This document shows, one piece after another, positions 771-19,855 of a stretch of 56,005 nt of DNA. The first letter of the stretch is position 1. The number at the start of each line of letters is the position of its first letter. A program made the translations under genes and the position numbers. The stretch comes from a virus (taxonomy: Duplodnaviria; Caudoviricetes): IMG/VR virus record IMGVR_UViG_3300027971_000061, positions 1-56,005 of that record; one strand, written 5' to 3'. Under the pieces are notes generated by a model. That model searched no databases. It saw only the letters and a list, made by a program, of their open reading frames with translations, and was not told where the DNA came from.

Positions 771-983
771 GTGCATACCATGATTCGCTTCAGCAAAGAA
801 AATTTATTAACGCAATTGCAAAACAAAATTAACCACATGGAAAAAGTTTGGGGTTTTGTTTCTGACAATGGTACAAACCAAATTAAAGACAAAACCGAAT
901 TTGACCGCGTTATGGCTTACGGTGAATACAACTCCCTGCTTGACATTTACGAGTCAATCAAGGATGGAAACTATTTCATATGA
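771..983 (+). CDS. Hypothetical protein (start may be ATG 780)
   Basis: AT-rich 70-aa ORF whose stop overlaps the methyltransferase start (ATGA). Confidence 0.7.
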   Translation: MHTMIRFSKENLLTQLQNKINHMEKVWGFVSDNGTNQIKDKTEFDRVMAYGEYNSLLDIYESIKDGNYFI

Positions 984-2023
984 AATTCCTTGAATTATTT
1001 GCAGGTATTGGTGGCTTCCGCCTTGGGTTAGAAAAGGCGGGTCACCAGTGCGTATGGGCTAACGAATTTATACCAAGAGCGGCAAGCATCTATGAGCACA
1101 ACTTTAAACACAAACCCGACGGACGAGACATACGAGGAATTCACATTGATGAAATCCCCAGCGCCGACCTACTCGTTGGAGGATTTCCATGCGCAACTTT
1201 CAGCGTTGCTGGTAGACGAACAGGATTCGGGACAGAGGATACACGCGGTACTCTCTTTTTTGAGATCTGTCGCATTGCCGCTGGTAAGCGAATCCCATAT
1301 CTATTCCTTGAGAATGTTAAGGGACTCCTCAATCACGACGGAGGACGAACCTTTGGAATTATCATCGCAAGTCTGGATGAACTGGGGTATGACGTCCAAT
1401 GGGAGTGTCTTAACAGCAAGAATTTCGGAGTCCCACAGAATAGGGAACGAGTCTTTATTGTCGCAAGTCTTAGAGGACACCCCAGACCCCAAGTATTTCC
1501 TCTCGGAAGATGTTATGCAGAAGATAGCGTTCAACACCGAGGTGAACAAGATCAAGAACCGCGGGTTCGGAGCGAAGGTGGTCTCACTATCGGAACACTC
1601 TGTCACAGACTTTACAAGGGAGACACTAACAACTTCTACCTTGCTGGACAAGTACGAGGACAGGTTGAACAACTTGAGGACGCTACAGCAGGAGAAAGTG
1701 ACAGCACTTCCGAACCAAATGGATCTGTTCGGGCAGTCCTGACACCAGCCAAAGAAAAGAAGCGCCAGCGTGGTCGCCGAATGAAAGAGCACAACGAACC
1801 AGCATTCACGCTCACAGCTCAAGACAGGCATGGGTTGATGGTTGGGTCACAGCTCAGAAGATTTACTCCGTTAGAGTGCGAGCGTTTGCAGTCGCTACCT
1901 GATGATTGGACGCGCTGGTTTGCAGACGGATCAGAGGTTCCCGACACGCACAGATACGAGCGTTGTGGTCGTGCCGTAACAGTCAACGTGATATACGAAA
2001 TTGCCAAGAGGTTACCAGCATGA
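980..2023 (+). CDS. C5 DNA cytosine methyltransferase-family protein, predicted carboxymethyltransferase
   Basis: Motif I ELFAGIGG, IV GGFPC, VI ENVKGL, VIII QNRERVF, IX RRFTPLECERLQ. Motif X reads CGRAV (Arg331, codon 1970-1972) instead of GNAV. Confidence 0.95.
   Translation: MKFLELFAGIGGFRLGLEKAGHQCVWANEFIPRAASIYEHNFKHKPDGRDIRGIHIDEIPSADLLVGGFPCATFSVAGRRTGFGTEDTRGTLFFEICRIAAGKRIPYLFLENVKGLLNHDGGRTFGIIIASLDELGYDVQWECLNSKNFGVPQNRERVFIVASLRGHPRPQVFPLGRCYAEDSVQHRGEQDQEPRVRSEGGLTIGTLCHRLYKGDTNNFYLAGQVRGQVEQLEDATAGESDSTSEPNGSVRAVLTPAKEKKRQRGRRMKEHNEPAFTLTAQDRHGLMVGSQLRRFTPLECERLQSLPDDWTRWFADGSEVPDTHRYERCGRAVTVNVIYEIAKRLPA
1092..1742 (+). CDS. Overprinted +1-frame protein inside the methyltransferase gene (M.EcoHK31I beta-like arrangement), with C-terminal beta-clamp-like motif
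   Basis: 216 stop-free codons. LSQVLEDTPDPKYFLS resembles the LxxxLE...KYxLS segment of C5 MTases that is missing from the main frame. Ends QMDLFGQS. Confidence 0.7.
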   Translation: MSTTLNTNPTDETYEEFTLMKSPAPTYSLEDFHAQLSALLVDEQDSGQRIHAVLSFLRSVALPLVSESHIYSLRMLRDSSITTEDEPLELSSQVWMNWGMTSNGSVLTARISESHRIGNESLLSQVLEDTPDPKYFLSEDVMQKIAFNTEVNKIKNRGFGAKVVSLSEHSVTDFTRETLTTSTLLDKYEDRLNNLRTLQQEKVTALPNQMDLFGQS

Positions 2024-2835
2024 TTGACATCAAAAAGGTTTTGCTTCAAAGCGCTAGTACACCAGAGACTGACGCGGCTGTTTTGCTTAGTGCAGGGGTA
2101 GACTCATCAAGCGTTCTATTCGCGTTGCTAGAGGCTGGTAAGCGCGTCACAGCGTATTCGTTCTGCTTAGACGATAGAACGTCAACCGATGTGAAGTACG
2201 CGCAGATCACAGCTAAGGAGTTTGGTGTACCGTTTGTGCAGATACCGCTACCCACGAGCATAGACGTGCTCAGGGAGGACTTGGTGGATCTGGTGCGTTT
2301 CGGGGCTAGGAAGAAGACGGACTTTGAGTGTGGTTGGCCAATGCTCTACGCTTACAAAGCCATCCGCGAACGCGAGATCTTCTCTGGCATGGGTGCTGAC
2401 GGACACTTCTGCATCAGCAAAAAAGGAATGATGCACTTCAAAGACAGGATCGACGAGTTCAGGGATACCTTGTTCTCAAACCCCTCCTATGGTCAAGAGC
2501 ACATCCACAAGAAGCTCAGCATGGTCTACAAAAAGAGTTGGGTTGCGCCCTTCATGACGCAGAAGATGATTGACGAGCTTAGGGGAACCACATGGGACGA
2601 GGTTAACCGCCCTCACCAGAAGCAACCTATCCTCGACGCATTCCCTGAGCAGTTCAAGCGTATACGGGTCTTCAAGCACACAAACTTTCAGAAGGGTGAC
2701 TCAGGTATCTCTGAGCACTTTGAGAAGCTCCTAACTACGGATCTGAACGTGGGAAGGCACAAGTCGGTGGTTGGGATCTACAACTACTTAGTCAAAAACT
2801 TAGCGAAAGAAAAAGATGAGCTCTTGGACATTTGA
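2020..2835 (+). CDS. Asparagine-synthetase-like ATP-dependent amide ligase (synthetase domain only)
   Basis: PP-loop VLLSAGVDSS, SGMGADGHF and APF..; no N-terminal Ntn glutaminase domain. ATG 2020 overlaps the MTase stop (ATGA). Confidence 0.85.
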   Translation: MIDIKKVLLQSASTPETDAAVLLSAGVDSSSVLFALLEAGKRVTAYSFCLDDRTSTDVKYAQITAKEFGVPFVQIPLPTSIDVLREDLVDLVRFGARKKTDFECGWPMLYAYKAIREREIFSGMGADGHFCISKKGMMHFKDRIDEFRDTLFSNPSYGQEHIHKKLSMVYKKSWVAPFMTQKMIDELRGTTWDEVNRPHQKQPILDAFPEQFKRIRVFKHTNFQKGDSGISEHFEKLLTTDLNVGRHKSVVGIYNYLVKNLAKEKDELLDI

Positions 2836-3472
2836 AACCCCTGAGATTGCCAGCACGTTTGACTCTCACGTTCGTGAGCAGTTACCGTGGTACGACATGA
2901 CCACAGACGCTGTGTGCTATATCGTGCGCAACTACCTAACCGAAGGCGGTCTCGTGGTGGACGTAGGGTCGTCTACTGGGAACATGCTTAACAAGCTAAT
3001 GCCCTTGCTGAATGAGCGTTTAGCGCAAGCAGTTGCTATTGAGAAAAGCCGCAACATGTGCGAAGTCCTGCAACAGCGCCTAAAGCACCACAACAACGTC
3101 GCCGTGGTTCAGGGTGACATCATTGACTGCGACATCCCAGAGGCTCAGGTCTTTATCGTTTTTCTGACCATGATGTTTATTCCTGTGCACGAGCGTCAGT
3201 TGGTTTTAGAGAACCTCAGAGCGCGTTGCGTTGAAGGTGGGGTGATAGTAGTGGTGGACAAGATCTGTGACCATGGCGGGTACTTTGCGACCGTCCTGAA
3301 GCGCCTCACTATGCAACTCAAGCTCCAGCAGGGAGCCAAGCCAGAGGACGTGCTTAACAAGGAGATGAGTTTGGCAGGGATACAGATCCCAATTGACCCA
3401 GCTATTTTGGGGTCAGACGCGAAGCAATTTTTCCGCATGGGTGAGTTTGCAGGATGGGTAATTGAATGTTAG
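2816..3472 (+). CDS. cmoA: CmoA-like carboxy-SAM synthase / class I SAM-dependent protein
   Basis: WTFETPEIASTFDSHVREQLPWY aligns with CmoA [22 protein letters not shown]. Also VDVGSSTG SAM motif, LTMMFI, GGVIVVVDK and C-terminal FFRMGEFAG. Confidence 0.82.
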   Translation: MSSWTFETPEIASTFDSHVREQLPWYDMTTDAVCYIVRNYLTEGGLVVDVGSSTGNMLNKLMPLLNERLAQAVAIEKSRNMCEVLQQRLKHHNNVAVVQGDIIDCDIPEAQVFIVFLTMMFIPVHERQLVLENLRARCVEGGVIVVVDKICDHGGYFATVLKRLTMQLKLQQGAKPEDVLNKEMSLAGIQIPIDPAILGSDAKQFFRMGEFAGWVIEC

Positions 3473-3553: not shown

Positions 3554-3988
3554 ATGAACTTCTTCAAAACACAACCTAACCCACACGCTCCAGTCCACAT
3601 CATCGTTGTGGAGATCAGCGACAAGACTCAGCACACAGATGGCTGGGTATCACGCAATGACTTTAAAACCTTTGAGCAGGCTCAAGAGGTGGCAGAAGCC
3701 GCCAGCCGCTTTGAGGGCGTGGACTACATCGCTACTGATGCTGGTAACTACTGCTCACCACGTTACGACGTTATCAAGGCGCCACAGCACTTGGCTCCAG
3801 TCTCCTATTGTTTCAATGGCGACTACTACCCTTGCGGTCACATCAAGTCCATCAGCAAGACCATGAAGAAGATCACCACTACCACAGACAAGACCTTCTA
3901 TCGTCGTAAAAACACAGGTTGCTGGTTGGCTAACGGCACATGGTCAATGGTCGAAGGTCACATCGAAGCGCGCAACCCAATGTTCTGA
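3554..3988 (+). CDS. Hypothetical protein
   Basis: 144-aa ORF, first gene after cassette B. Confidence 0.8.
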   Translation: MNFFKTQPNPHAPVHIIVVEISDKTQHTDGWVSRNDFKTFEQAQEVAEAASRFEGVDYIATDAGNYCSPRYDVIKAPQHLAPVSYCFNGDYYPCGHIKSISKTMKKITTTTDKTFYRRKNTGCWLANGTWSMVEGHIEARNPMF

Positions 3989-5133: not shown

Positions 5134-5323
5134 CGACGACACGCAAGACTATGTAGCATCTGGTTGGCGCAAAAGACAAGACCAGCCAACACGCAACGAG
5201 ATCATCGACAAGATCAGGAACGACACACTCGAGGAGGTAGCGCATGAGGTGGAGAAGATGCAAGCCTTTGAAAAAGACACAATGGCAAGCTTTGCGGCGT
5301 ACATACGAGGACTTAAGAGATGA
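5126..5323 (+). CDS. Hypothetical protein
   Basis: GGAG RBS, ATG 5126, RNDTLEEVA segment, ATGA coupling to the next gene. Confidence 0.7.
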   Translation: MDDDDTQDYVASGWRKRQDQPTRNEIIDKIRNDTLEEVAHEVEKMQAFEKDTMASFAAYIRGLKR

Positions 5324-6006
5324 CGAGAAAAGTAGCAATCGTTAGCCCGTCCTATGATGGAAAGATCGTATGCGATCACGCTATAGCGCTGGTGACCATC
5401 TTCCAAAGAGCGGCTAAGGAGCGTCCTGACTTAGACCTGAGCCTGAACTACTGGATGGGTGAAGCTCTGCTACAAAAAGCCCGAAACAACCTGTTCTGCG
5501 ACGCATACGACAGTGGGGTAGACGACATTGTGTTTTTAGACGTAGACCAAGGGTTTGATGCACAGGCGTTCTTTGATGTTCTCGACCACCCAGTAGACGT
5601 GGTCGGGATCACTGCTAGGATGAAGACAGACGACGAGCGCTACACACACCGCCCAGAAGACCCTAAACAGCACCGCTGGGATCAGAGTTTGAAGCTGTTG
5701 GAGGTAGAGTTCCTAGCCACAGGATTTTTGCGCCTCAGCAGAAAAGCTATGAAAGCTCTGTATGACGTGTCAGCACCCTACAACGACGGAAAAGAGAGAA
5801 GACTGATCTGCGACGTGCAGATTATCAATGGTGGAATGATCTCGGAAGACATCCAAATTGGTAAGAAGCTCAAGGAGGCTGGGTTCCAAAGCTACTTAGA
5901 CATCCGCCACACCTGTACACACTTTGGTGTCAAGAAGTACGAGGGTGACTACCAGTACAAGTACGCTGAGACAATCCTTGAAGGACTGATGGAGAACCAC
6001 AAATGA
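5320..6006 (+). CDS. GT-A fold glycosyltransferase-like protein
   Basis: N-terminal VAIVSPSY, ARNNL, DxD motif (FLDVD), ATGFLRLSR, SED motif and HFG. Confidence 0.75.
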   Translation: MTRKVAIVSPSYDGKIVCDHAIALVTIFQRAAKERPDLDLSLNYWMGEALLQKARNNLFCDAYDSGVDDIVFLDVDQGFDAQAFFDVLDHPVDVVGITARMKTDDERYTHRPEDPKQHRWDQSLKLLEVEFLATGFLRLSRKAMKALYDVSAPYNDGKERRLICDVQIINGGMISEDIQIGKKLKEAGFQSYLDIRHTCTHFGVKKYEGDYQYKYAETILEGLMENHK

Positions 6007-6263: not shown

Positions 6264-6824
6264 GTGATGGCAAAGAAACCAAAAGATCTTTCCAGCGACA
6301 AAGTCGCCGATGTGACAGGTAAGCCGCAAACAAGAAAAGTAACAACAATGGGCAGACCATCAGTCTACTCAGATGCGTTAGCTAACGAGATATGCGTAAG
6401 ACTAGGATTAGGTGAGAGCTTACGCAAGATATGCTTGGATGACCGTATCCCAAGCTTGGCTACTGTGATGACTTGGTTGTCGCGCAAGCCTGACTTTCTT
6501 GAACAATACACTCGCGCACGTGAGATTCAAGCAGAGACTCAGTTCGATGAGCTGATCGACATTGTTGACCAACCGCCTGAGCTGGCGCGCATTGTGGACA
6601 AGAACGGAGAGCTGATTGAGGTCAAGTTCGACTCCTCCTACGTGCAATGGATGAAGCTGAGGGTCGACACCCGCAAGTGGACAGCCGCTCGCATGGCGCC
6701 TAAGAAGTACGCTGAGTACAAGCAACCAGAGGAGAAGGTTGACTCAATAATCGTTGATGGTGAGATCAAGACGGTCATGGACGTGGCGATCAAGCGCCTT
6801 GAGCTGATCAGGATCGCTGAATGA
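6264..6824 (+). CDS. terS: Terminase small subunit
   Basis: GRPSVYS...GESLRKIC...PSLATVMTWL...KLRVDTRKW (Sf6/P22-type), immediately upstream of TerL. Confidence 0.9.
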   Translation: MMAKKPKDLSSDKVADVTGKPQTRKVTTMGRPSVYSDALANEICVRLGLGESLRKICLDDRIPSLATVMTWLSRKPDFLEQYTRAREIQAETQFDELIDIVDQPPELARIVDKNGELIEVKFDSSYVQWMKLRVDTRKWTAARMAPKKYAEYKQPEEKVDSIIVDGEIKTVMDVAIKRLELIRIAE

Positions 6825-8257
6825 GCGAGGTCATAGAGCAGGACGTGCTGGACATCCTTGCTGACCCGCAGATCAGGAAGAGCCTAGGCCCCTACCACGC
6901 TATGGCATACGCCAGACGGGCTAAATGGCTCTCAGGCGCCTTCAATCACCAGAAGCTACCCCAAGGTACGTATTGGTCTATTTGGCTCATGCTCGCAGGC
7001 CGTGGCGCCGGTAAAACTAGGACAGCCGCGGAGCAACTTTGGTGGTGGGCGTGGGAGAACCCGAACACCCGCTGGCTGGTCTCCGCCCCTACGTCTATGG
7101 ACGTCCGCGGTACGTGCTTTGAGGGTGAGTCAGGACTTATGGCTGTGATTCCCGAGATCCTGATCAGGGACTACAACAAAGCCCTGCACGAGATTGTGCT
7201 GATCAACGGGAGCCTGATTAAAGGCATCTCGGCGTCAGAGCCTGATCGTTTCCGCGGTGGTCAGTACCATGGGGCTTGGTTAGATGAGCTTGCCGCTTGG
7301 GATTATCTTGACGAAGCTTGGTACAACATACAGTTCGCCGTCCGTCTTAAGAAGGCTGATGGCAGGACACAGATCATTGTTACGACTACCCCACGTCCCA
7401 AAGACCTGATCGTAGAGCTTGTAGGCAGGGAAGGAGACGACGTAGCCCTGACGACGGCATCTACCTATGTGAACCTAGCTAACCTCGCTCCAAGCTTTCA
7501 GAAGCAGATCCTAAGCTATGAAGGAACCACCATAGGGAGGCAGGAGATCCACGCAGAGCTGATAGACCCAGAAGAGTCAGGGATCGTCAAGCGCGACATG
7601 TTCAAGCTGTGGGCGCCAAACAAGCCGTTCCCAAAGTTCGAGTACATCATCCAGTCATACGACTGCGCAACCTCAGAGAAGACTGTCAACGATCCGACCG
7701 CGGCTATCACGTTTGGGGTGTTCAAGCCACTGGATGGCGCTATGTCAGCCATGGTGATCGACTGCTGGCAGGACAGGCTCCAATACCCAGACCTGCGCCC
7801 CAAGGTGATCGAGGAGTACGACGTGGTCTACGGTGAGGGCAAGGACAAGAAGCGCGTAGACCTGATCCTCGTAGAGGACAAGTCCGCAGGGATCTCCCTG
7901 ATCCAAGACTTACAGCGTGCGCACATGCCAGTGAGGGCGTACAACCCCGGTCGCGCTGACAAGCTTCAGCGCCTCAACATTGTGTCCAACATCATCGCCG
8001 CTGGGCGTGTATGGATCCCTGAGAGCAGTGTCAGGAAGGGTTACGTCAAGGACTGGGCTGAGGGCATGGTCAGCCAGATCTGTAGCTTCCCTGACTCGAC
8101 GCACGACGACTTCGTGGACGCCTGCACCCAAGGCTTGAGGTTCCTACGTGATGCTGGGTGGCTAGACATCGATGGCGCCCCACGGGACGACTATGACGAC
8201 GACGACTATGCGGATAGCGGTATGGCTAAGAAGCGCGAGAACCCATATGCCGCATAA
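6821..8257 (+). CDS. terL: Terminase large subunit
   Basis: Walker A GRGAGKT, Walker B WLDE, TTTP motif and nuclease HDDFVDA. Confidence 0.97.
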   Translation: MSEVIEQDVLDILADPQIRKSLGPYHAMAYARRAKWLSGAFNHQKLPQGTYWSIWLMLAGRGAGKTRTAAEQLWWWAWENPNTRWLVSAPTSMDVRGTCFEGESGLMAVIPEILIRDYNKALHEIVLINGSLIKGISASEPDRFRGGQYHGAWLDELAAWDYLDEAWYNIQFAVRLKKADGRTQIIVTTTPRPKDLIVELVGREGDDVALTTASTYVNLANLAPSFQKQILSYEGTTIGRQEIHAELIDPEESGIVKRDMFKLWAPNKPFPKFEYIIQSYDCATSEKTVNDPTAAITFGVFKPLDGAMSAMVIDCWQDRLQYPDLRPKVIEEYDVVYGEGKDKKRVDLILVEDKSAGISLIQDLQRAHMPVRAYNPGRADKLQRLNIVSNIIAAGRVWIPESSVRKGYVKDWAEGMVSQICSFPDSTHDDFVDACTQGLRFLRDAGWLDIDGAPRDDYDDDDYADSGMAKKRENPYAA

Positions 8258-8900
8258 GGTGGGAGTCATCATTCCCACATATAGAAGACCAGACCTACTG
8301 CGTCAGGCAGTGCTCCAGTGGATCGTTCAGACCGTCAAGCCTGATGTGCTGTGCATCCACCAGAACGGTAGTGAGGAGAGCTACGAGTGGGTGATCGAGG
8401 ATCTCAAGCCTCTGATCGAGATCAAGTGGATCCACGTACCTAACACGATCAAGCAACACCTGTGGTACGCGCTACCCCTGAGCCAGCTTCTTGGGGAAGG
8501 GTGCGACGTGTTCCTGTGGGCAGATCACGACGACATCTACTACCGTGACCATGTGGAGAAGAAGCTTGCCGCCTTGGAAGGGCACGACATGACGCTGTCC
8601 GACACCTGTGGGGTGCTGTTCCTTAAACCGCACGACTACAAGTACCAGAGACCTGAGAAGTTTACGGCACACGCCCCCGGGGGTATGTCCTCCTCCACCG
8701 CCTTTGGCAAGAACTTCGCGCTGGCGCTTATGCTCGACTTGGTGACTGACGAGGAGTTCTACTACTCTGACAACGTGCTGGCGTACACAACCATGCCCAA
8801 GCACGACGTCCATGTGACTCAGGACGTGACCACGGTGTACGTCTCCCACAAGGGATCGCACAGCTCTGGGCACTGGGCTGAGAATGTTTTGGGATCGTAG
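8247..8900 (+). CDS. Glycosyltransferase family 2-like protein
   Basis: MPHKVGVIIPTYRRPDLL N-terminus and ADHDD (DxD) motif. Confidence 0.85.
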   Translation: MPHKVGVIIPTYRRPDLLRQAVLQWIVQTVKPDVLCIHQNGSEESYEWVIEDLKPLIEIKWIHVPNTIKQHLWYALPLSQLLGEGCDVFLWADHDDIYYRDHVEKKLAALEGHDMTLSDTCGVLFLKPHDYKYQRPEKFTAHAPGGMSSSTAFGKNFALALMLDLVTDEEFYYSDNVLAYTTMPKHDVHVTQDVTTVYVSHKGSHSSGHWAENVLGS

Positions 8901-8926
8901 ACACAGCATGAGCACCAAGGTATCAT
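8898..8926 (+). promoter_or_regulatory. Putative sigma70 promoter
   Basis: TAGACA-N17-TATCAT upstream of 8957. Confidence 0.55.
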
Positions 8927-8956
8927 TAGGGCAACAGCAACTCAGCAGGGTAAGCC

Positions 8957-11900
8957 ATGGCTGATCTAAACAAACCAGCGTTCTATCCCCGTGTTGGGAA
9001 CATCACCCCTAGACCTCGTGCGCCGTTGGCTCAGACTGAGGTGAGGGAGCAACCCCTTGACCCCATCATGCGGGTGTTCAAGGATCTGATGGACAGATCG
9101 TCTGCCCTGCTTGACAAGTCCAAGGTCTCCCCCTTTGACGTGACCAAGGGTCTGATCAGCGCTATCCCGTTTGAAGGTGAGCGCTTTGCTAAGGACTTTG
9201 ACAAGTCAACCATGCCAATCCCTACTGGGTTTGGTCTACTTCCAAAGGTCTCACCCCAAGGTATAGACACCAGCGAGATGGGTATGCAGTCCGTGCGCGT
9301 TCCAACAAAGGAAGCACTAAACGAGCTGAAGTGGTCTGACTTGGTCGGTACGGCTGGCGCTTCCCGTATGTTCGAGGCGTTAGGTCAGAACAGAACCCCT
9401 GAGTTCTTTGACACGCTTGACGCCACAATGCTAGGTCTAGGTGGTCTGAGCGCCGCTAGAGCCGCTCCAAAGGTCGCTAAGGCTGTTGGTGAGGGTGCTA
9501 AGACTGTAGGCATGGGTGGACTTGAGATGATCGACCGCGGCATGTTTGGGGAAGGCCCCTTGCGTAACTTCGTCCCCCAGCACAAGTTTGTTGTCAAGCC
9601 CAAGGGTGGGAACTGGTTTGACGACAACTTGAATAGGTCAGTCCAAGATTTAAAGAAGAGTGATAGAGGCATTCCGTTTTCTAACGAAGATGTAACGTAT
9701 CTTGAAGGTGAGATAGAGCGTTTACAAAGTGGTAATCTTCAAAACGAGATGGTGCAGGACAACATCCGAAGATTGCAAGGCGACTTAGCCCTGAACAAAC
9801 AGGAGTCAGCGCTAAACAATTGGCTTGAGAACACATACAAAAACTACGTCAAGAACGAGATGGCGACACCTGAAGACAGGGTGCGCAAGATGTTTGACCG
9901 TCGTACAGAAGACGTAGAGAAGCTAGAAGCTAAGTACGAGAAAGACATCACCAAGCTGGAAACGAAGCTGGCAAATGCTAAAGCTCAACCACAAAGCAGG
10001 GAGAGAGACCAAGCGATTGCTTACCTTGAGCGCGACATTGAAAACAAGATTCAAGATTTAAACTTTGATGTTGGTACTGCTGAAAAAACCATTGGTCACA
10101 TTAGGTATTTAGAGAACGAAGCAAGACACCCAGCACACGGAGTGACAAGCGTACGTGAGGATAGAGGTTTCCCGACTGAAGGATTGGCTACCTCCACCAT
10201 TGGCAAGGGCTGGGAAAACTTAACAGATAGTTTGCTTGGTATGAAGAAGGCTGGTCGCATAGGAAGGTTGCCTGAAACCGTAGAGCGCTACCCATGGCTT
10301 GAGAAGGTTGATCCAGAATCCATGGTCTACAAAACAATGAGCGACTTAAACAAGGATACAGGTATTGATCATGTTTTAGACGTACTACGTCAAGACGTGC
10401 GCTCTGGTGCTATTACCCCTGAGCAGTTAAGCAAAATAACAATGGATCAGGCTATTGAGCGCACCGCTAACTTTGACCGTGCGGCGGCTGTAAAGATGCG
10501 TAAGACTGCCATTCAAAACACTGAAGGCTTCCCTACCTACAAGGCATACCCAGAAGGATACAAATGGATTGAGTTGGCTCCACCAAAGGAACTGCCTGCT
10601 GGGTATAAAGTGATTAAAAGCGACATAGGTGAAGGTTTCAAAGTTGTAGACGCTGATGGAAATGACGCGGTATCAACAGCTTCGCGCCCAACAAACAACA
10701 TGGGGCATACAAACATACCGTTTCACAAGACTGAAGAGGAAGCAATTGCTGACGCACTAAAGTACGACAAGCGTTTAGAAAAAGCTCTTAAGTACGAAGG
10801 CGACACCATGGGTCACTGCGTCGGTGGTTACTGCCCTGATGTGCAGGAAGGACGAACCAGAATATTCAGTTTGCGCGACAGGCGTGGTGAACCTCATGTA
10901 ACGGTCGAAGTAAAACCGCAACAACATTTGGATTACAACACTTGGTTTAATAAACAGCCAGAAGAAGTTCAAAACAGAATTGCCCAACGAAGAATACAAG
11001 ACAAAAATCACGACATATACGAAGGCCCAGAATATCTCGCCGCCCGTGAAGCGTTATCACCTTTAATTTACCAAGTTAAAGGTAAGCAGAACGCTCGTCC
11101 GATTGAGAAGTACGATCCTTACACGCAGGATTTTGTTAGAAGCGGTAACTGGGACATCATTGGAGATTTTGAAAACACTGGTTTGTACAAAGCTGACCCC
11201 AATGAACTGGGCATGTATTTGCCTATGGCTGAAGACCTCAAAGACTTGCCAGTTAAGCGCTCTGACCTGCTTACCCGTGCCCAGCAAGCAGGCTTGTTTC
11301 CAGAAGGGCAGAAGTACCTCAACCGCAGTGAATGGGAAGACATCCTGCGCAAGCAATACCAAGCCGAGAACCCACCTAAGCCTGACGTTCCACCAGATCT
11401 TGAGGGCATGAAGCGTGGGGGTGTGGTCATCTCCAACAACCCAGACACCATGATGATGGAGCTAGGCAATCAAAAGTTTGGTATTGGTGGTCTTGCCACG
11501 GTAGCTAAAAACGCTAAGAAGGTAGCTGAGCCTATGAAAGCCTCTGAGGCGCTAGGCAAGATTGAAGGTCGCCCACTGAAGATTACGCAGTCTGACCGCA
11601 CGAAGGTTGGCGGCGGCTACTTGGGAGGCCCCGGCTTCTCGAGCCTTCAGCTTACCGAACCCGAGTACCGTGCGGCTGAGGCGGCATGGGGCGTTCAAAA
11701 CGCAGGCACAGCTAAGACTATCCTTGGTGGTGGTAAGAAGGGTGACGACGCCGTTTATGCGGCTATGATTGGTACACCTACCCAGCACCAGTCCAACCAG
11801 ATGGTGTTTGACAAGCTGTACGGTGACTTTAGGAAAGCCGCTAAGCGTGGTGAGTTAACACCTGAACTGCGCGACTTAATCAATACACGCCTAGCCGCGT

Positions 11901-12457
11901 CCGTTGACAACAAGGGTAATCCTGTATTCCCTGCGGATGTTGACATCATGGACAAGAATTTTAAGAACATAGCTGACACGTTCAGTCGTCGCTCTATAGC
12001 TGGTCACTTGATGGGTGGTGTACAGGTAGGCGGTAAGAAAGGTCAGATCATTGACTACGACAAGATCATCCGCAACACAACCGACCCAGCCTTGATAGAT
12101 CAACCTACTGGTGCATTAGGTAATCGTCTGTTTACACTCAGTGGCGGCATTATTGATCGCCCTGACTTACACCCAGCGTTCCCAACCATCCTGCAAGGTG
12201 AGGACTTAGGTCTGACGTTTAGCCCTGTGGAGCGCAACCTTGTCATGAAGGACTTTGTTGATAAGACCATGCGCGAGAAGGGCAGGAAGCCGGGCTACAT
12301 GGACTACACCCGCGGCAACCCACCCACACAGTTGATCACCGAAGACATCCTGACCGAGTTGCAGAAGCTCGGTCTTAAGAAGGGTGGAGCTGTCCACAAA
12401 GCCGAAGGCGGTGAAGTAACTGGCGACGACCTAATCCTTGAAGAGAGACCACTATGA
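8957..12457 (+). CDS. Large polyvalent/internal virion protein with PcfJ-like domain
   Basis: EGDTMGHCVGGY...IFSLRD...HVTVEV (PcfJ-like motif) and several xxxGG motifs; lies between terminase and portal. Confidence 0.75.
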   Translation: MADLNKPAFYPRVGNITPRPRAPLAQTEVREQPLDPIMRVFKDLMDRSSALLDKSKVSPFDVTKGLISAIPFEGERFAKDFDKSTMPIPTGFGLLPKVSPQGIDTSEMGMQSVRVPTKEALNELKWSDLVGTAGASRMFEALGQNRTPEFFDTLDATMLGLGGLSAARAAPKVAKAVGEGAKTVGMGGLEMIDRGMFGEGPLRNFVPQHKFVVKPKGGNWFDDNLNRSVQDLKKSDRGIPFSNEDVTYLEGEIERLQSGNLQNEMVQDNIRRLQGDLALNKQESALNNWLENTYKNYVKNEMATPEDRVRKMFDRRTEDVEKLEAKYEKDITKLETKLANAKAQPQSRERDQAIAYLERDIENKIQDLNFDVGTAEKTIGHIRYLENEARHPAHGVTSVREDRGFPTEGLATSTIGKGWENLTDSLLGMKKAGRIGRLPETVERYPWLEKVDPESMVYKTMSDLNKDTGIDHVLDVLRQDVRSGAITPEQLSKITMDQAIERTANFDRAAAVKMRKTAIQNTEGFPTYKAYPEGYKWIELAPPKELPAGYKVIKSDIGEGFKVVDADGNDAVSTASRPTNNMGHTNIPFHKTEEEAIADALKYDKRLEKALKYEGDTMGHCVGGYCPDVQEGRTRIFSLRDRRGEPHVTVEVKPQQHLDYNTWFNKQPEEVQNRIAQRRIQDKNHDIYEGPEYLAAREALSPLIYQVKGKQNARPIEKYDPYTQDFVRSGNWDIIGDFENTGLYKADPNELGMYLPMAEDLKDLPVKRSDLLTRAQQAGLFPEGQKYLNRSEWEDILRKQYQAENPPKPDVPPDLEGMKRGGVVISNNPDTMMMELGNQKFGIGGLATVAKNAKKVAEPMKASEALGKIEGRPLKITQSDRTKVGGGYLGGPGFSSLQLTEPEYRAAEAAWGVQNAGTAKTILGGGKKGDDAVYAAMIGTPTQHQSNQMVFDKLYGDFRKAAKRGELTPELRDLINTRLAASVDNKGNPVFPADVDIMDKNFKNIADTFSRRSIAGHLMGGVQVGGKKGQIIDYDKIIRNTTDPALIDQPTGALGNRLFTLSGGIIDRPDLHPAFPTILQGEDLGLTFSPVERNLVMKDFVDKTMREKGRKPGYMDYTRGNPPTQLITEDILTELQKLGLKKGGAVHKAEGGEVTGDDLILEERPL

Positions 12458-15018
12458 GCCTTGTCAAATTAGGTGGGTTAGGCGCTAAAGCCGCTAAAAA
12501 GACTGCACCCTTTTACTCTTTCGTAGATGAGACGTTGGCTAACCTGAAGCGTAACAAGGGTACAGGCGCTGAGTTCCTAACCGAAGTCATGAAGACCAAG
12601 GGTGTCAAACCCGCGGAGATCGCTGATCGTAAGCTTGAGCAGGCGTTCAAGGACAAGGGCAAGATGACGAAGCAAGAGGCTCAGCAAATCTTAGCCGATA
12701 ACCCTCCGCCAAAGGTTCAAGAGCGTGTGCTTGAAGATTTGGATGATGATGCGCGCAAAGCGTTGATCGACGATAAGATGGAAATTTATGGGTACGATCG
12801 TTACAGTGAAGTTCCAAGAGACGTAATGCGTCAATGGAATGATGAGATTGATGCTGACGCCGTAAAGTACAACGATTCCGATTACGTAAGCAAAGGTGGT
12901 AGCAACTACCGCGAAATCCTGCTCAAGTTACCGCAGTCTTATACAGAAAAAGATTTTCAACGTTTGTTGATGCTAGAGGCAGAACAACGACGTGGTGACT
13001 TGACCCCTGCGCAAATTAAAGAGATGGCAGATTTGCAGGCAAAGAAGCAGACAGCCGCATCCAACTACTCATCTGGTCATTGGGATGATCCAAACGTGTT
13101 AGCTCACATGCGTGTACAGGATAGAATGATCGCTCAGCCCCCACAAAAGGGCTTTTACGTTGTCAACAATACGTCTGGCAGACGATCAGATATGTTTGAT
13201 ACCCCTGAACAGTTGCAGGCGTATGTTGAAACTTTGCCTGAAAGCATTCGCAACAACGTGACTATGGCTCAGGGTGAACGCAAGGTTCCGCCGAGGAAGG
13301 TCTTGCAAGTTGAAGAGATCCAGTCTGACTGGCATCAGGCGGGACGCAAGAAAGGTTACGCATCTGAGGAAAATCCAATGCGTATGACTGGCGAGGCTAT
13401 ACCTCTTGGCGACAAAACCTACGGAGTTAGGTGGCAGGATGGCTCTGTAGATACGCTTGGTTACGGAAAACATCATGCTGAAACAATTGCCCAAGAAGGC
13501 AAGTTGACTGGCGTTGTTCCTGACGCGCCATTCAAAAAGAACTGGCACGAGCTGGCAATGAAGCGCTTGTTAAACTACGCGGCTGATAAAGGTTATGACG
13601 GCATAGCAATCACGCCCGGCTCTGAGCACTTTAAGCGCTATGGTAGTGAGCGCATTGATTGGAAGAAGAGCGATGACGGTTGGATTGTTGGAGCCAAAGA
13701 GCAGACTGGTGGACGCCACGAAGGTCGAGACCTTGAAGAGATTGCCCGTGATCGAGGCATTTTGCTCGAGCGAAGCGGTGACCCAGTTAAGTCTAAAGAA
13801 GACCTGTATCGAATTGTTAACACAGTACTGAATCGCGAAAACAACCCAGAGCAGGTCAATAAGCTTACAAATCGCATTTGGGATCGTATGCAGACAGAAG
13901 CAGAAGGCACATCCTTACCCCGCAAGGAAGGCATGGAAGGCTTCTACGACAAGATGCTGACGGACTACCTGAACAGCTACGGTGATAAATACGGCGCTCA
14001 GGTTCAAATGCGTCAGGTTGCGGCTACGCCTGAAGCTATGGAAAAGAAGTTCAATCTCAATCCTAATACTTTGCCTGACATGAACGCAGAACAGGCTACT
14101 GACTACAACAAGATCCTACAAGGCTTTGGCAACACACAACTGTCTGACGTGCACTACTTTCCCATCACGCAACCTATGCGTGAGTCCATCAAGCAAAAGG
14201 GCTTACCCCTGTACCAACAGGTTGGCATCCCAACTGCTGGCGCTGGTGCGGCTTCTCAAGCGCTACAACCTGAAGAAGAGTTAGGCTTGTCTGGTGGTGG
14301 GTCTGTTGCCAAGCTGGCGGCGCTTGCCAAGATGAAGAAACTCAAGGAGGAGATGGCACCTCGTGCAGAAGCTGTTAAGAACATAATTACCAGAGATCAG
14401 AATAGCTATTTGCGTGACGTTGTCCCTAACTCGCTGACCAATCCTGAGATTGAGGCTGAGATCAAGCGCATGGCGGCTAAAGCCAGAGCCGCTGAGAGCG
14501 ACGCTAAACTTGCTAAGTTCCTCGAGGAAAGCAAAGTCAAAGATCGTCTGTATCATGGAACTAACAAAGATATATCGTTTTACGATAAATCAAAACTGGG
14601 GGCAAACCCAGAAACCGCACACCAAACATCTCAATTGGGATTTTTCTTAACAAGTTCACCTGAAGAAGCATCAGCTTACGCAGGCAAAAGAAAAGGCGCA
14701 AATGTTCAACCATTACACGCCGCCATCAAAAACCCATATGAGACAACGTGGGATAACATCCATGAGATAGATGGTTATGAATTGCAACAAAAATTAAAAG
14801 GTCTTGGTTATGACGGCGTTGTAATTAAAGACAAGGGCGCTCCTGACAACTATGTTGCATTTGAACCTACACAAATCAAGTCAGCTACAGGCAATCGCGG
14901 TACATTTGATCCGCTTGAACCTGAAGTTAATAAGGCAAAAGGCGGCAAGGTTACAATGGCCAAGAACCGCGACGCAATGTTCATGGAACTGAGCAACAAG
15001 AAGCTCAAAAGGAAATAA
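12454..15018 (+). CDS. Large polyvalent protein with C-terminal ADP-ribosyltransferase-like domain
   Basis: LYHGT...GFFLTSSPEEASAYA...GYDGVVI...YVAFEPTQIKS (ART of polyvalent proteins), plus a central EEIQSDWHQ domain. Confidence 0.75.
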   Translation: MSLVKLGGLGAKAAKKTAPFYSFVDETLANLKRNKGTGAEFLTEVMKTKGVKPAEIADRKLEQAFKDKGKMTKQEAQQILADNPPPKVQERVLEDLDDDARKALIDDKMEIYGYDRYSEVPRDVMRQWNDEIDADAVKYNDSDYVSKGGSNYREILLKLPQSYTEKDFQRLLMLEAEQRRGDLTPAQIKEMADLQAKKQTAASNYSSGHWDDPNVLAHMRVQDRMIAQPPQKGFYVVNNTSGRRSDMFDTPEQLQAYVETLPESIRNNVTMAQGERKVPPRKVLQVEEIQSDWHQAGRKKGYASEENPMRMTGEAIPLGDKTYGVRWQDGSVDTLGYGKHHAETIAQEGKLTGVVPDAPFKKNWHELAMKRLLNYAADKGYDGIAITPGSEHFKRYGSERIDWKKSDDGWIVGAKEQTGGRHEGRDLEEIARDRGILLERSGDPVKSKEDLYRIVNTVLNRENNPEQVNKLTNRIWDRMQTEAEGTSLPRKEGMEGFYDKMLTDYLNSYGDKYGAQVQMRQVAATPEAMEKKFNLNPNTLPDMNAEQATDYNKILQGFGNTQLSDVHYFPITQPMRESIKQKGLPLYQQVGIPTAGAGAASQALQPEEELGLSGGGSVAKLAALAKMKKLKEEMAPRAEAVKNIITRDQNSYLRDVVPNSLTNPEIEAEIKRMAAKARAAESDAKLAKFLEESKVKDRLYHGTNKDISFYDKSKLGANPETAHQTSQLGFFLTSSPEEASAYAGKRKGANVQPLHAAIKNPYETTWDNIHEIDGYELQQKLKGLGYDGVVIKDKGAPDNYVAFEPTQIKSATGNRGTFDPLEPEVNKAKGGKVTMAKNRDAMFMELSNKKLKRK

Positions 15019-15021
15019 GCT

Positions 15022-17580: not shown

Positions 17581-17722
17581 CCCTTACCACAACGAAGCCG
17601 TGCCCATGCACAAGCGTATTGCCGCTGGCGAGAAGCTTGATGGCACGTCTTTGAAGCCCTCTGGCAACACAGCGCCAGCCAAAAAACAAGGAGGCGCACT
17701 ATCGCAAGCTAAGAAGAAATAA
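17567..17722 (+). CDS. Small basic protein (51 aa, not in the ORF track)
   Basis: AGGAG RBS; MATSNPYHNEAVPMHKRIAAG...KKQGGALSQAKKK; stop overlaps the next ATG. Confidence 0.7.
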   Translation: MATSNPYHNEAVPMHKRIAAGEKLDGTSLKPSGNTAPAKKQGGALSQAKKK

Positions 17723-17913
17723 TGATATTCAATTTGGGTGATCTGATCGGCGCAATTAAGGCGCGTCAAGCTAATATAGCTTCTTCCTTAGCGGCTGGAA
17801 ATGTCGCGTCATGGGAGACGTACCAACGCACGGTCGGCACAAACTTGGGATTGCAGGAAACCCTCGATCTCATTAACAAAATGTTAAAGGAAGATGAAGA
17901 AGATGAGCGATAA
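17722..17913 (+). CDS. Hypothetical head-module protein
   Basis: 63-aa ORF coupled to both neighbours. Confidence 0.75.
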   Translation: MIFNLGDLIGAIKARQANIASSLAAGNVASWETYQRTVGTNLGLQETLDLINKMLKEDEEDER

Positions 17914-19278: not shown

Positions 19279-19288
19279 GGAAACAAGT

Positions 19289-19837: not shown

Positions 19838-19855
19838 CTTCTAAGGAGTAAGACT

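What the first reader, a model, noticed from the sequence alone, without database searches (positions are those of the whole stretch)
980..3472. Predicted cytosine carboxymethylation/amidation DNA hypermodification operon
Seen: three tightly overlapping genes (C5 MTase, asparagine-synthetase-like ligase, CmoA-like protein). MTase motif X reads RCGRAV, so Arg331 replaces the nearly invariant Asn of G-N-(A/S)-V. Established: CmoA makes carboxy-SAM from SAM and prephenate; the engineered Asn-to-Lys change at this position (M.MpeI N374K, Dcm N436K) lets C5 MTases use carboxy-SAM to form 5-carboxymethylcytosine; asparagine-synthetase domains adenylate a carboxylate and amidate it. Inference: the phage makes its own Cx-SAM, writes 5cxmC on its DNA and converts it to an amide, probably as anti-restriction protection. 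I recall a similar gene trio being reported recently from a cyanophage, so novelty should be checked against that; this would be a case in an unrelated podovirus-like phage.
Basis: partly seen in the sequence, partly recalled or inferred. Interest (0 to 1): 0.95.

Follow-up and report, generated by a model that had tools for sequence, protein, structure and literature searches.

The report
Two-chain phage DNA carboxymethylcytosine operon
An uncultured phage carries the recently published three-enzyme kit for decorating DNA cytosines with a carboxymethyl-amide group, but its DNA-modifying enzyme evolved separately from the published one and probably needs a second protein hidden in another reading frame of its own gene.

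Summary
Three overlapping + strand genes sit at 980-2023 (C5 DNA methyltransferase fold), 2020-2835 (asparagine-synthetase-like PP-loop ligase) and 2816-3472 (CmoA-like). Motif X reads RCGRAV, and Arg331 aligns with M.HhaI Asn304.

Yang et al. (Nat Commun 2025, PMC12783734) proved CmoA/CmoX/CmoY chemistry in Synechococcus phage S-B43: 5-carboxymethylcytosine, then its glycine amide. This scan has also noted the cassette on other DNA.

What differs here:
1. The enzyme is not the published SPPC-type CmoX. It belongs to a GFPC-Ala72...Gly-Arg331 clade nested among ordinary HhaI-like enzymes, and a single Arg-bearing clade is rejected (p-AU 0.0085 and 0.0055).
2. Gln-to-Ala in motif IV covaries with Asn-to-Arg in motif X. 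These are the two pocket positions enlarged in engineered M.HhaI.
3. A conserved +1-frame ORF (1092-1742) lies inside the gene, as in the two-chain M.EcoHK31I. A complex model supports binding (0.83; best control 0.18).
4. Of 73 Arg-type enzymes, 68 have CmoA adjacent, against 0 of 35 Asn-type. The ligase is present in only 14 of 61 clade members.

The amine donor and the target sequence remain unknown. Verdict: a new variant of a known kind.

The parts
980..2023 (+). cmoX-like alpha chain: C5 DNA cytosine (carboxy)methyltransferase fold, 347 aa. Motifs: FAGIGG (998-1015), GFPC-A (1181-1195), ENV (1310-1318), QNRER (1436-1450), RRFTPLECERLQ (1856-1891), CGRAV (1964-1978).
   Evidence: Pfam PF00145 E 3.3e-78; TIGR00675; PDB best match M.HhaI E 3.7e-47 against SpCmoX 8YF3 E 1.1e-15; motif coordinates.
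1190..1195 (+). Codons for catalytic Cys71 and Ala72. Ala replaces the canonical motif IV Gln (HhaI Gln82).
   Evidence: Pocket role of Gln82 from PMC3526304 (passages).
1970..1972 (+). Codon CGT for Arg331 in motif X. It replaces HhaI Asn304 and equals SpCmoX Arg350, the Cx-SAM carboxylate contact.
   Evidence: PMC12783734.
1092..1742 (+). Nested +1-frame ORF, 216 aa: candidate beta chain of the transferase. Conserved core WMNWGMTSNG (1374-1403) and LLSQVLEDTPDPKYFLS (1455-1505); C-terminal NQMDLF (1713-1730).
   Evidence: The +1 frame is open for 192-251 codons in 23 of 23 relatives. The MTase is the outlier among 25 long ORFs. The segment is in the +1 frame in 11 of 11 clade genes. Alignment A5 has 15 invariant columns. 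Complex model 0.83 against best control 0.18. Precedent M.EcoHK31I (PMC2836561).
2020..2835 (+). cmoY-like ATP-dependent (AMP-forming) amide ligase, 271 aa. PP-loop SAGVDSS at 2089-2109; no glutaminase domain.
   Evidence: PF00733; phrog_26038 E 8.8e-59; 37% identity to SpCmoY, E 5e-45; model pLDDT 93.6; fold hits beta-lactam synthetase and AsnB/ASNS synthetase domains, TMq 0.70-0.75.
2816..3472 (+). cmoA-like predicted carboxy-SAM synthase, 218 aa. HVREQLPWY at 2867-2893, SAM-binding DVGSSTGN at 2960-2983, Lys182-Glu183 at the position of E. coli Lys198-Arg199.
   Evidence: TIGR00740 best hit but below cut-off; PDB sequence hits 4GEK, 4IWN, 1IM8; top fold hits the same, TMq 0.80-0.85; 41% identity to the Moraxella phage Mcat8 homologue beside an SPPC/Arg MTase; residue alignment.

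Best explanation
The locus is a phage DNA cytosine hypermodification operon of the CmoA/CmoX/CmoY kind. The CmoA-like enzyme (2816-3472) converts SAM plus prephenate into carboxy-SAM. The MTase-fold enzyme (980-2023) attacks cytosine C6 with Cys71 and transfers the carboxymethyl group to C5. Arg331 holds the cofactor's carboxylate, and Ala72 in place of Gln makes room and disfavours SAM. The PP-loop ligase (2020-2835) adenylates the new carboxylate and joins an amine to it, probably an amino acid such as glycine, identity open. The result is an amide-bearing cytosine on the phage genome that blocks restriction. Unlike the published monomeric CmoX, this transferase most likely works as a two-chain enzyme. 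The alpha chain is completed by a beta polypeptide translated from the +1 frame inside the same gene (1092-1742), as in M.EcoHK31I. Shown here: homology, motif states, gene linkage, phylogeny, conservation of the nested frame, and a supportive complex model. Inferred: every chemical step, the use of Cx-SAM, the amine, the DNA target site and the biological role.
For: Homology to the proven system:
- CmoY is 37% identical to SpCmoY (E 5e-45). It shares 20 of 23 invariant and 21 of 32 near-invariant family positions.
- The MTase Arg aligns with SpCmoX Arg350. Wild-type SpCmoX accepts only Cx-SAM, and R350N accepts neither cofactor (PMC12783734).
- CmoA structures are the best sequence and fold matches for the third protein.

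Pocket:
- Among 153 diverse sequences, Q/N occurs 128 times and A/R or S/R 10 times. No Q/R or A/N was seen where both positions were read.
- HhaI Gln82 and Asn304 line the transferable-group pocket. Q82A lowers methylation about 16-fold (PMC3526304).

Linkage:
- Of 51 Arg-type viral loci, 50 have CmoA adjacent, against 0 of 11 Asn-type.
- In the wider set the figures are 68 of 73 against 0 of 35.

Two chains:
- The +1 frame is open in 23 of 23 relatives.
- The LSxILE..KYFLS segment is in the +1 frame in 11 of 11 clade genes, and in frame 0 only in 2 longer single-chain relatives.
- Shine-Dalgarno-like sequences precede the nested ATG in six relatives (AGGAGG in L054/L056, GGGGGA in L053, AAGGAG or GAGGAG in L242/L251/L237).
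- The complex model scores 0.83 against a best control of 0.18. That mark was reached by 58 of 80 solved complexes and 2 of 110 mismatched pairs. The runs agree in at least 45% of contacts and the partner's pLDDT is at least 50.
- The interface uses beta's invariant W98, G99, T101 and K134-S138.
Against: - There are no chemical data for this phage or for any member of its clade.
- The CmoA-like protein scores 66-67 bits against a curated cut-off of 193.3 and is only 22% identical to SpCmoA.
- The one residue reported to contact the Cx-SAM carboxylate in E. coli CmoA, Arg199 (PMC4482062), aligns with Glu183 here. The validated SpCmoA also has Glu at that column.
- CysG/BelI-type methyltransferases score almost as well as CmoA in the fold search.
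- One of 121 close homologues (P0022) combines PCQ with Arg.
- The ligase differs from SpCmoY in a cluster after the SGxGADG loop (H129-F130-C131 against Y-Y-G), so glycine is not assured.
- The window's own nested ATG has only a weak Shine-Dalgarno.
- The alt-frame product is always less conserved than the main frame over the same DNA.
- The complex pass may reflect likeness to solved single-chain MTases, of which alpha plus beta look like a split form. My own alignments were used, so the calibration holds only roughly.
- No sigma-70-type promoter or terminator brackets the module on the + strand.
- The genome also relies heavily on site avoidance, so modification is not its only protection.
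Confidence: 0.75

Rival explanations
1. The transferase is single-chain, as published for SpCmoX. On this reading the nested +1 ORF is not translated, or has an unrelated role, and its openness and conservation are by-products of constraint on the main frame.
For: The main frame holds recognisable motifs I, IV, VI, VIII, IX-like and X. Its region 163-285 has real homology to the TRDs of Asn-type enzymes. Alt-frame identity is lower than main-frame identity in all 12 pairs. The window's Shine-Dalgarno is weak. SpCmoX is a monomer (PMC12783734).
Against: The MTase is the outlier among 25 long ORFs for alt-frame openness, 0.66 against 0.46 or less. Fifteen invariant beta columns persist down to 32% beta identity. 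The same segment is in-frame in single-chain relatives L159 and L160 and missing from the main frame here. Strong Shine-Dalgarno sequences occur in relatives. The complex model is supportive. M.EcoHK31I is a proven precedent.
Confidence: 0.15
2. The CmoA-like enzyme makes a SAM derivative other than carboxy-SAM, or modifies SAM differently, so the transferase installs a different group on cytosine.
For: The CmoA match is far below the curated cut-off. Arg199 is not conserved. Non-CmoA methyltransferases (CysG, BelI) are near-equal fold matches.
Against: A pocket Arg and a downstream carboxylate-adenylating ligase both call for a carboxylate. The validated SpCmoA shares the Lys-Glu pair at the Arg199 column. 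The 41%-identical Mcat8 homologue sits beside an SPPC/Arg CmoX-type enzyme. CmoA is the top hit in NCBIfam, PDB sequence search and PDB fold search.
Confidence: 0.07
3. An ordinary 5-methylcytosine methyltransferase that merely lies next to unrelated metabolic genes.
For: The enzyme has the full C5-MTase fold and is about 55% identical to M.HhaI over motifs I-VIII, judged by eye from the alignment printed. MTases are common in phages (1619 phage records matched).
Against: Both pocket residues that favour methyl transfer are replaced. Linkage to CmoA is 68 of 73 against 0 of 35. The genes overlap. SpCmoX with the same Arg does not use SAM.
Confidence: 0.03

Closest known systems
CmoA-CmoX-CmoY system of Synechococcus phage S-B43 (Yang et al., Nat Commun 2025, PMC12783734; CmoX structure 8YF3)
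   Same: The same three enzyme types lie in one overlapping operon. There is an Arg at the motif X position that binds the Cx-SAM carboxylate, and the motif IV Gln is replaced by a small residue (Ser there, Ala here). The ligase is of equal length (271 aa), 37% identical, with a PP-loop and no glutaminase domain.
   Different: The MTase is only 27% identical. It has GFPC, not the SPPC motif that the published survey required for its 5,615 candidates. It lies in a separate clade nested among Asn-type enzymes, and one Arg clade is rejected. It carries a nested beta ORF that 6 of 6 SPPC-type genes lack. The gene order is X-Y-A rather than A-Y-X. CmoA is only 22% identical. The ligase active-site neighbourhood differs. 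Nothing here has been tested biochemically.
M.EcoHK31I, the natural heterodimeric C5 DNA methyltransferase (as described in PMC2836561, passages read)
   Same: A second polypeptide is encoded entirely within another reading frame of the main MTase gene, and there it is required for activity.
   Different: EcoHK31I is a SAM-dependent 5mC enzyme of a restriction-modification system (YGGCCR). Its beta is said to carry motif IX. Here a motif IX-like RRFTPLECERLQ is in alpha, and beta carries the LSxILE..KYFLS and WGxTxxG segments. No sequence comparison with M.EcoHK31I itself was possible because no copy was on hand.
Engineered cofactor-pocket variants: M.HhaI Q82A/Y254S/N304A (PMC3526304) and M.MpeI N374K (cited in PMC12783734)
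   Same: The same two conserved positions, motif IV Gln and motif X Asn, are changed to accommodate a group larger than methyl. A basic residue at the motif X position gives Cx-SAM use.
   Different: These are laboratory mutants of SAM enzymes. Here the changes are natural, fixed across a large clade (119 of 121 PCA, 121 of 121 Arg) and linked to a dedicated cofactor synthase.
M.HhaI and HhaI-like phage C5 methyltransferases
   Same: Closest solved relative by sequence (E 3.7e-47). The catalytic domain motifs are shared.
   Different: The TRD does not align (only residues 1-162 and 284-343 matched). The pocket is Ala/Arg instead of Gln/Asn. The target sequence is unknown.

Membership tests
C5 cytosine DNA methyltransferase fold (PF00145 / TIGR00675) | Profile match over the curated cut-off, with the catalytic PC dipeptide, ENV and QxRxR motifs | tested here: met
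   263.8 bits against cut-off 22 and 274.3 against 100.65; motifs located.
CmoX as defined in Yang et al. 2025 | Arg at the position of SpCmoX R350 (HhaI N304) | tested here: met
   Arg331 aligns with HhaI Asn304 and with the SpCmoX GRMV Arg.
CmoX as defined in Yang et al. 2025 | 'SPPC' motif (S95 P96 P97 C98), used as a filter in the published survey | tested here: not met
   The window has GGFPC. 120 of 120 listed homologues have GFPC.
CmoX as defined in Yang et al. 2025 | Genomic association with CmoA | tested here: met
   Adjacent here. 60 of 61 GFPC-Ala/Arg clade loci have CmoA directly downstream; the exception has 32 nt of room.
CmoX as defined in Yang et al. 2025 | Common descent with SpCmoX to the exclusion of ordinary Asn-type MTases | tested here: not met
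   In the trees, the clade (SH-aLRT 99) is nested among GFPCQ/Asn enzymes. One Arg clade is rejected: dlnL 109.7, p-AU 0.0085 and dlnL 111.2, p-AU 0.0055.
CmoX as defined in Yang et al. 2025 | Uses Cx-SAM and forms 5cxmC on DNA | not testable with these tools
   Needs enzyme assays and LC-MS.
CmoA, carboxy-SAM synthase (TIGR00740) | Score over the curated equivalog cut-off | tested here: not met
   66.2 and 67.4 bits against 193.3. It is still the best-scoring family.
CmoA, carboxy-SAM synthase (TIGR00740) | Arg199 (E. coli numbering), the only side chain contacting the Cx-SAM carboxylate (PMC4482062) | tested here: not met
   Arg199 aligns with Glu183. The same Glu is present in 40 of 40 clade members and in the experimentally active SpCmoA. 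The preceding Lys and Tyr39 are invariant. So the feature is not universal in active CmoAs.
CmoA, carboxy-SAM synthase (TIGR00740) | CmoA fold | tested here: met
   Model pLDDT 84.3. Top PDB hits are 1IM8, 4GEK and 4IWN at TMq 0.80-0.85, with CysG/BelI close behind at 0.75-0.79.
CmoY, 5cxmC amide ligase (SpCmoY family, phrog_26038) | Homology to SpCmoY over the full length, PP-loop, no glutaminase domain | tested here: met
   37% identity over 256 residues, E 5e-45. SAGVDSS PP-loop. 271 aa. Fold matches only the synthetase domains of AsnB, ASNS and beta-lactam synthetase.
CmoY, 5cxmC amide ligase (SpCmoY family, phrog_26038) | Residues that bind the glycine carboxylate (paper's Supplementary Fig. 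8) | not testable with these tools
   Supplements are closed and the main text does not name the residues. Differences from SpCmoY cluster at H129-F130-C131.
EcoHK31I-type two-chain C5 methyltransferase | Second polypeptide encoded wholly within another frame of the alpha gene | tested here: met
   ORF 1092-1742 in the +1 frame, conserved in 23 of 23 relatives.
EcoHK31I-type two-chain C5 methyltransferase | Beta binds alpha and is required for activity | tested here: inconclusive
   The complex model supports binding (0.83; best control 0.18), but a model is not a measurement and may echo single-chain structures. The requirement for activity is not testable here.
EcoHK31I-type two-chain C5 methyltransferase | Beta carries motif IX | tested here: inconclusive
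   A motif IX-like RRFTPLECERLQ is in alpha. Beta carries other conserved segments. In the model beta contacts alpha 290-299. Motif naming in the source paper could not be compared residue by residue.

The most novel reading that the evidence does not exclude
This is a second, independently evolved family of natural DNA cytosine carboxymethyltransferases. It is built on a two-chain scaffold (alpha plus an overprinted beta) of EcoHK31I type, which converged on the same Arg/small-residue cofactor pocket as CmoX and as laboratory-engineered enzymes. Its beta chain has gained a C-terminal Q-x-x-L-F tail that might tether the enzyme to the replication clamp. With its own ligase variant it would produce an amide of 5-carboxymethylcytosine other than the glycine adduct, that is, an undescribed DNA base.
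Probability: 0.3. Interest if true: 0.7.

Novelty: new variant of a known kind. Interest (0 to 1): 0.55.

Why it matters
The chemistry itself (Cx-SAM, then 5cxmC, then an amide) was published in December 2025, so the discovery value of the trio is gone.

What remains is threefold. First, nature reached the same cofactor pocket at least twice on different methyltransferase scaffolds, and at the very two positions that protein engineers chose. That is a clean case of convergent evolution and a guide for re-engineering other C5 methyltransferases.

Second, the published census required an SPPC motif, so it would have missed this GFPC-type clade. The clade is large: all 120 listed best homologues and 61 distinct viral loci. 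Carboxymethylated phage DNA is therefore likely more widespread than counted.

Third, the nested beta ORF has a practical consequence.

Within the lineage the ligase is optional (14 of 61), which offers natural pairs of phages predicted to carry 5cxmC or its amide.

Tried and rejected
- Nucleotide search of the phage collection with the operon found nothing.
- PDB sequence search with the ligase found nothing at E 0.01 or better. The fold search was needed instead.
- Kim et al. 2013 (CmoA structure paper) is not held. Arg199 was taken from passages of PMC4482062 instead. The review PMC10491745 gave no residue detail.
- I considered that the MTase main frame might be frameshifted, with the real TRD in the +1 frame. 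I rejected this because main-frame residues 163-285 align with Asn-type TRDs at 30-40% identity over about 120 residues, and the frame is intact in every relative.
- I considered that SPPC-Ala/Arg enzymes (relatives of P0200) bridge the two Arg groups. I rejected this because they fall inside the SPPC group (SH-aLRT 97). P0200 itself sits on a long branch inside the GFPC clade and may be chimeric; this was not followed up.
- The treekit AU test on the 75-row set did not finish in 863 s. I replaced it with a direct IQ-TREE run using a simpler model (LG+G4, fast search). The tree had been seen before both AU tests were run, although the groups were defined by motif state.
- The regex reading miscalled L164 as Arg. 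The alignment-based reading (Q/N) is the one used.
- The promoter/terminator consensus scan gave nothing that frames the module.
- Inference of the target site failed. The TRD does not align with HhaI. Site statistics say only that GCGC is not avoided (272 against about 217 expected), whereas GGCC, CCGG, GCWGC, CCWGG and GGWCC are. That argues weakly against a bare GC specificity like SpCmoX.
- Pfam at E up to 1 gave nothing for ORFs 5320-6006, 3554-3988 and the nested ORF.
- Supplementary files of PMC12783734 are closed. They may list the 5,615 CmoX candidates, the ligase clusters and the glycine-binding residues, and so may bear on whether any GFPC-type enzyme or this ligase type was already catalogued.
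- Not-in-print statements rest on searches (one relevant paper; 7 EcoHK31I papers, none on Cx-SAM by listing). They also rest on the term search: 'Gln', 'motif IV' and 'FPC' occur 0 times in that paper's main text.

Full report
OBSERVATION. The window is a complete 56,005-bp IMG/VR virus record. One search lists three + strand ORFs at 980-2023, 1906/2020-2835 and 2816-3472. With the ATG at 2020 the middle protein has 271 residues and aligns from residue 1 with SpCmoY. The junctions are a 4-nt and a 20-nt overlap. Family scans give a C5 DNA methyltransferase (PF00145 E 3.3e-78; TIGR00675 E 1.8e-81) and an Asn_synthase/PP-loop protein (PF00733 E 8.3e-11; phrog_26038 E 8.8e-59). The third protein has CmoA (TIGR00740) as its best NCBIfam hit, but at 66 bits against a cut-off of 193. 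Motif X reads RCGRAV. In the HMMER alignment to M.HhaI it lies opposite FGNSV, so Arg331 replaces Asn304.

ALREADY KNOWN. A literature search found Yang et al., Nat Commun 2025 (PMC12783734). I read its abstract, Results, Discussion and term passages; its supplements are closed. In Synechococcus phage S-B43, CmoA makes carboxy-SAM and the C5-MTase homologue CmoX writes 5-carboxymethylcytosine at GC sites. Arg350 contacts the cofactor carboxylate. Wild-type CmoX accepts only Cx-SAM, and R350N accepts neither cofactor. The asparagine-synthetase homologue CmoY ligates glycine, giving 5gcxmC, which was found in phage DNA. The authors list 5,615 candidate CmoX sequences, selected for an 'SPPC' motif plus R350. 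They state that ligases of other clusters may use other amines. Two further searches found no other paper on natural phage CmoX. Earlier notes of this scan describe the same cassette on other DNA.

RELATION TO THE PUBLISHED PROTEINS. I fetched the S-B43 locus. The ligases are 37% identical over 256 residues (E 5e-45), the MTases 27% and the CmoA proteins 22%. The gene order differs: A-Y-X there, X-Y-A here. The best CmoA relative among cultured phages is in Moraxella phage Mcat8 (41%). There it follows an SPPC/Arg MTase with no ligase. The trio also occurs in Staphylococcus phage vB-SscS-F1 and Pseudomonas phage PaBG.

A SEPARATE LINEAGE OF THE TRANSFERASE. The PDB sequence search puts M.HhaI first (E 3.7e-47) and SpCmoX (8YF3) far behind (E 1.1e-15). 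Motif IV reads GGFPC-A, not SPPC-S. All 120 listed homologues plus the query have Arg in motif X (121 of 121). Of these, 119 have PCA, one has PCQ (P0022) and one has PCG. I then examined 153 sequences: 150 representatives of 50%-identity clusters, the query, SpCmoX and the Mcat8 enzyme. The two positions covary. Q/N occurs 128 times, A/R 8 times and S/R twice, with no Q/R or A/N where both positions could be read. The remaining 15 have other states or an unread position. Passages of PMC3526304 show why. HhaI Gln82, Tyr254 and Asn304 line the pocket for the transferable group. Q82A lowers methylation about 16-fold, and N304A gives the largest gain with extended cofactors. The window's enzyme is thus a natural 'Q82A + N304R'. 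The main text of Yang et al. does not mention the motif IV change.

PHYLOGENY. A 61-row tree (IQ-TREE, LG+C20 PMSF, quick search) places the GFPC-Ala/Arg clade (11 rows, SH-aLRT 99) inside a group of GFPCQ/Asn enzymes. SpCmoX, Mcat8 and PaBG sit in a separate SPPC group (98), together with SPPC enzymes that have Met or Leu at the motif X position and no CmoA nearby. Holding all Arg-type rows together costs 109.7 log-likelihood units (p-AU 0.0085). I then added 10 SPPC-Ala/Arg enzymes, which might have bridged the groups, and 4 more GFPC-type ones. The picture did not change. A direct IQ-TREE AU test on those 75 rows again rejects one clade (dlnL 111.2, p-AU 0.0055). That test used LG+G4 with a fast search, because the mixture-model test did not finish. 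Caveats: the outer Asn-type rows have long branches, both trees come from quick searches, and I had seen the tree before running the tests. Asn is the family norm, so the simplest reading is two independent gains of Arg.

Among 63 related viral loci, motif X was readable in 62. Of the 51 Arg-type loci, 50 have a CmoA gene directly downstream; the exception has 32 nt of contig left. Fourteen of them also have the ligase. None of the 11 Asn-type loci has either gene within 1.3-5 kb. After three more scans with divergent clade members, the set holds 112 distinct MTases. Of 73 Arg-type enzymes, 68 have CmoA within about 1 kb. Of 35 Asn-type enzymes, none has CmoA or CmoY. By scaffold, the 61 GFPC-type enzymes comprise 46 X-A, 13 X-Y-A, one Y-X-A and one truncated contig. 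The 12 SPPC-type enzymes comprise 8 A-X, three with no CmoA in 2-4 kb and one with only the ligase. Members of a clade are not independent, so the real weight is two independent lineages, each tied to CmoA.

THE CmoA-LIKE PROTEIN. PMC4482062 (passages) says that in E. coli CmoA only Arg199 contacts the Cx-SAM carboxylate. I fetched E. coli cmoA and aligned it. Arg199 falls opposite Glu183 of the window's protein and of 40 of 40 clade members. It also falls opposite Glu in SpCmoA, which is experimentally more active than the E. coli enzyme. The preceding Lys and Tyr39 are invariant. Arg199 is therefore not a universal requirement. The AlphaFold model (pLDDT 84.3) has CmoA structures as its top PDB hits (TMq 0.80-0.85), with CysG/BelI-type enzymes close behind. 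Function as a Cx-SAM synthase is well supported by context and only moderately by sequence.

THE LIGASE. The model is confident (pLDDT 93.6). It matches only the synthetase halves of beta-lactam synthetase, AsnB, human ASNS and carbapenam synthetase (TMq 0.70-0.75). The PP-loop SAGVDSS is present. SpCmoY shares 20 of 23 invariant and 21 of 32 near-invariant positions of a 53-sequence family alignment. The mismatches include H129-F130-C131 (Y-Y-G in SpCmoY), directly after the SGxGADG loop. The chemistry is conserved, namely adenylation of a carboxylate followed by amide formation. The amine is open. With no glutaminase domain, glutamine-derived ammonia is unlikely.

A NESTED SECOND CHAIN. The +1 frame of the MTase gene is open for 236 codons, with an ATG at 1092 and a stop at 1742. 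It is open for 192-251 codons in 23 of 23 relatives. Among the window's 25 ORFs of 250 aa or more, the MTase gene is the outlier (0.66 of its length, next 0.46). I had noticed MTase-like text in its product. Earlier notes of the scan then pointed to M.EcoHK31I. Passages of PMC2836561 confirm that this enzyme is a natural heterodimer whose beta chain is encoded wholly in another frame of the alpha gene and is needed for activity. Here the segment LSxILE..PD.KYFLS is encoded in the +1 frame in 11 of 11 GFPC-Ala/Arg genes and never in their main frame. It is in the +1 frame in 10 of 16 GFPCQ/Asn relatives. It is in frame 0 in the two longer relatives that lack a nested ORF (L159, L160). It is absent from 6 of 6 SPPC-type genes, whose longest alt-frame stretches are 34-139 codons. 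The window's beta aligns to L159's main-frame protein at residues 208-235, between its two alpha-like domains (43% over 28 residues, E 0.002). A 20-row beta alignment keeps 15 invariant columns down to 32% identity. Shine-Dalgarno-like sequences precede the nested ATG in six relatives (AGGAGG, GGGGGA, AAGGAG or GAGGAG), but in the window the equivalent is only weak.

COMPLEX MODEL. The single complex prediction gave 0.83 (median of three runs) against a best control of 0.18. That mark was reached by 58 of 80 solved complexes and 2 of 110 mismatched pairs. The runs agree in at least 45% of contacts, and the partner's pLDDT is at least 50. The interface joins beta W98, G99, T101 and K134-S138 to alpha 138-145 and 290-299. 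Alpha plus beta resemble a split single-chain MTase, so this pass may come partly from likeness to solved structures, and my own alignments were used. Main-frame residues 163-285 still align with Asn-type TRDs, so the annotated frame is genuine and both frames code. The two-chain architecture predates the switch to Arg, since Asn-type relatives share it. SpCmoX, in contrast, is a monomer.

CONTEXT. The phage is uncultured. Its large terminase is 66% identical to a spring-water Caudoviricetes record and 40% to Caulobacter phages. Portal, tail-fibre, ejection and internal virion transglycosylase proteins were recognised. A small terminase follows at 6264-6824. The genome avoids several restriction sites to an extreme degree: GCWGC 0 and CCWGG 0 against about 109 expected each, GGWCC 1 against 109, GGCC 38 against 186-217, and CCGG 44 against 113-217. 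GCGC is not avoided, at 272 against 217. This fits strong restriction pressure. As a weak inference, the target is not simply GC.

VERDICT. The kind of system is already published. This copy is a new variant: an independently derived GFPC-Ala/Arg transferase, probably two-chain, with a divergent CmoA and an optional ligase of unknown amine specificity. None of the chemistry has been tested for this lineage.

Noticed in passing
window 1713-1730 (nested ORF C-terminus): The nested beta ORF ends in P-N-Q-M-D-L-F-G-Q-S. A Q-x-x-[LM]-F tail is kept in 11 of the 12 relatives printed (L034 ends ...QLGLF) and in 11 of the 13 Arg-type rows of alignment A5. It is absent from the 7 Asn-type beta ORFs aligned. 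It resembles the bacterial sliding-clamp-binding motif (consensus recalled, not checked). The main frame has its variable, low-complexity insert over the same DNA.
   Followed up: partly
window 1-56005: Extreme avoidance of GCWGC (0 against about 109 expected), CCWGG (0 against 109), GGWCC (1 against 109), GGCC (38 against 186-217), CCGG (44 against 113-217), CTGCAG (0) and CAGCTG (0). GCGC (272 against 217) and GATC are not avoided.
   Followed up: partly
window 5320-6006 (+): A 228-aa ORF with an FLDVDQGF segment. There is no Pfam hit even at E 1, and phrog_1574 is of unknown function. Protein-atlas neighbours are viral clusters in which 11-12% of members carry Glycos_transf_2 or Anp1. This is a weak lead to a GT-A-type glycosyltransferase close to the modification module.
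   Followed up: partly
L149:5553-6560 (Staphylococcus phage vB-SscS-F1): The C5-MTase beside CmoA and CmoY homologues keeps PCQ but has Gly at the motif X Asn position (VVGGVI). This would be a third pocket solution, reminiscent of engineered N304A.
   Followed up: no
L148 (Erwinia phage pEa_SNUABM_36, record 8000-20000): CmoA and CmoY homologues are adjacent, but no C5-MTase lies within this 12-kb stretch. SpCmoX-like matches in these jumbo phages lie about 16 kb further on and start only at query residue 98.
   Followed up: no
L152, L153, L154, L151 (LoVEphage, Fpv5, BMBtp14, Melnitz-2): Close relatives of SpCmoX have SPPC-S or SPPC-P with Met or Leu at the motif X position, and no CmoA or CmoY within 3 kb. 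These are MTase-fold enzymes with a remodelled pocket and an unknown cofactor.
   Followed up: no
P0125 and P0165 (1146 and 1018 aa): Two large fusion proteins carry a beta-like LSxILE..KYFLS segment (residues about 206-267) N-terminal to an alpha-like MTase domain that starts near residue 384-416. This may be a natural beta-alpha fusion.
   Followed up: no
P0200; L166-L180: P0200 (GFPC-A, LGRAV) sits on a long branch in the GFPC clade. Its best viral relatives (about 50% identity) are SPPC-Ala/Arg enzymes of the other group. It may be a recombinant between the two transferase lineages.
   Followed up: no
L251:4001-4993 and flanks: This is the one GFPC-type locus with the ligase upstream of the transferase (Y-X-A) rather than between X and A. 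It suggests the ligase was acquired more than once within the clade.
   Followed up: no
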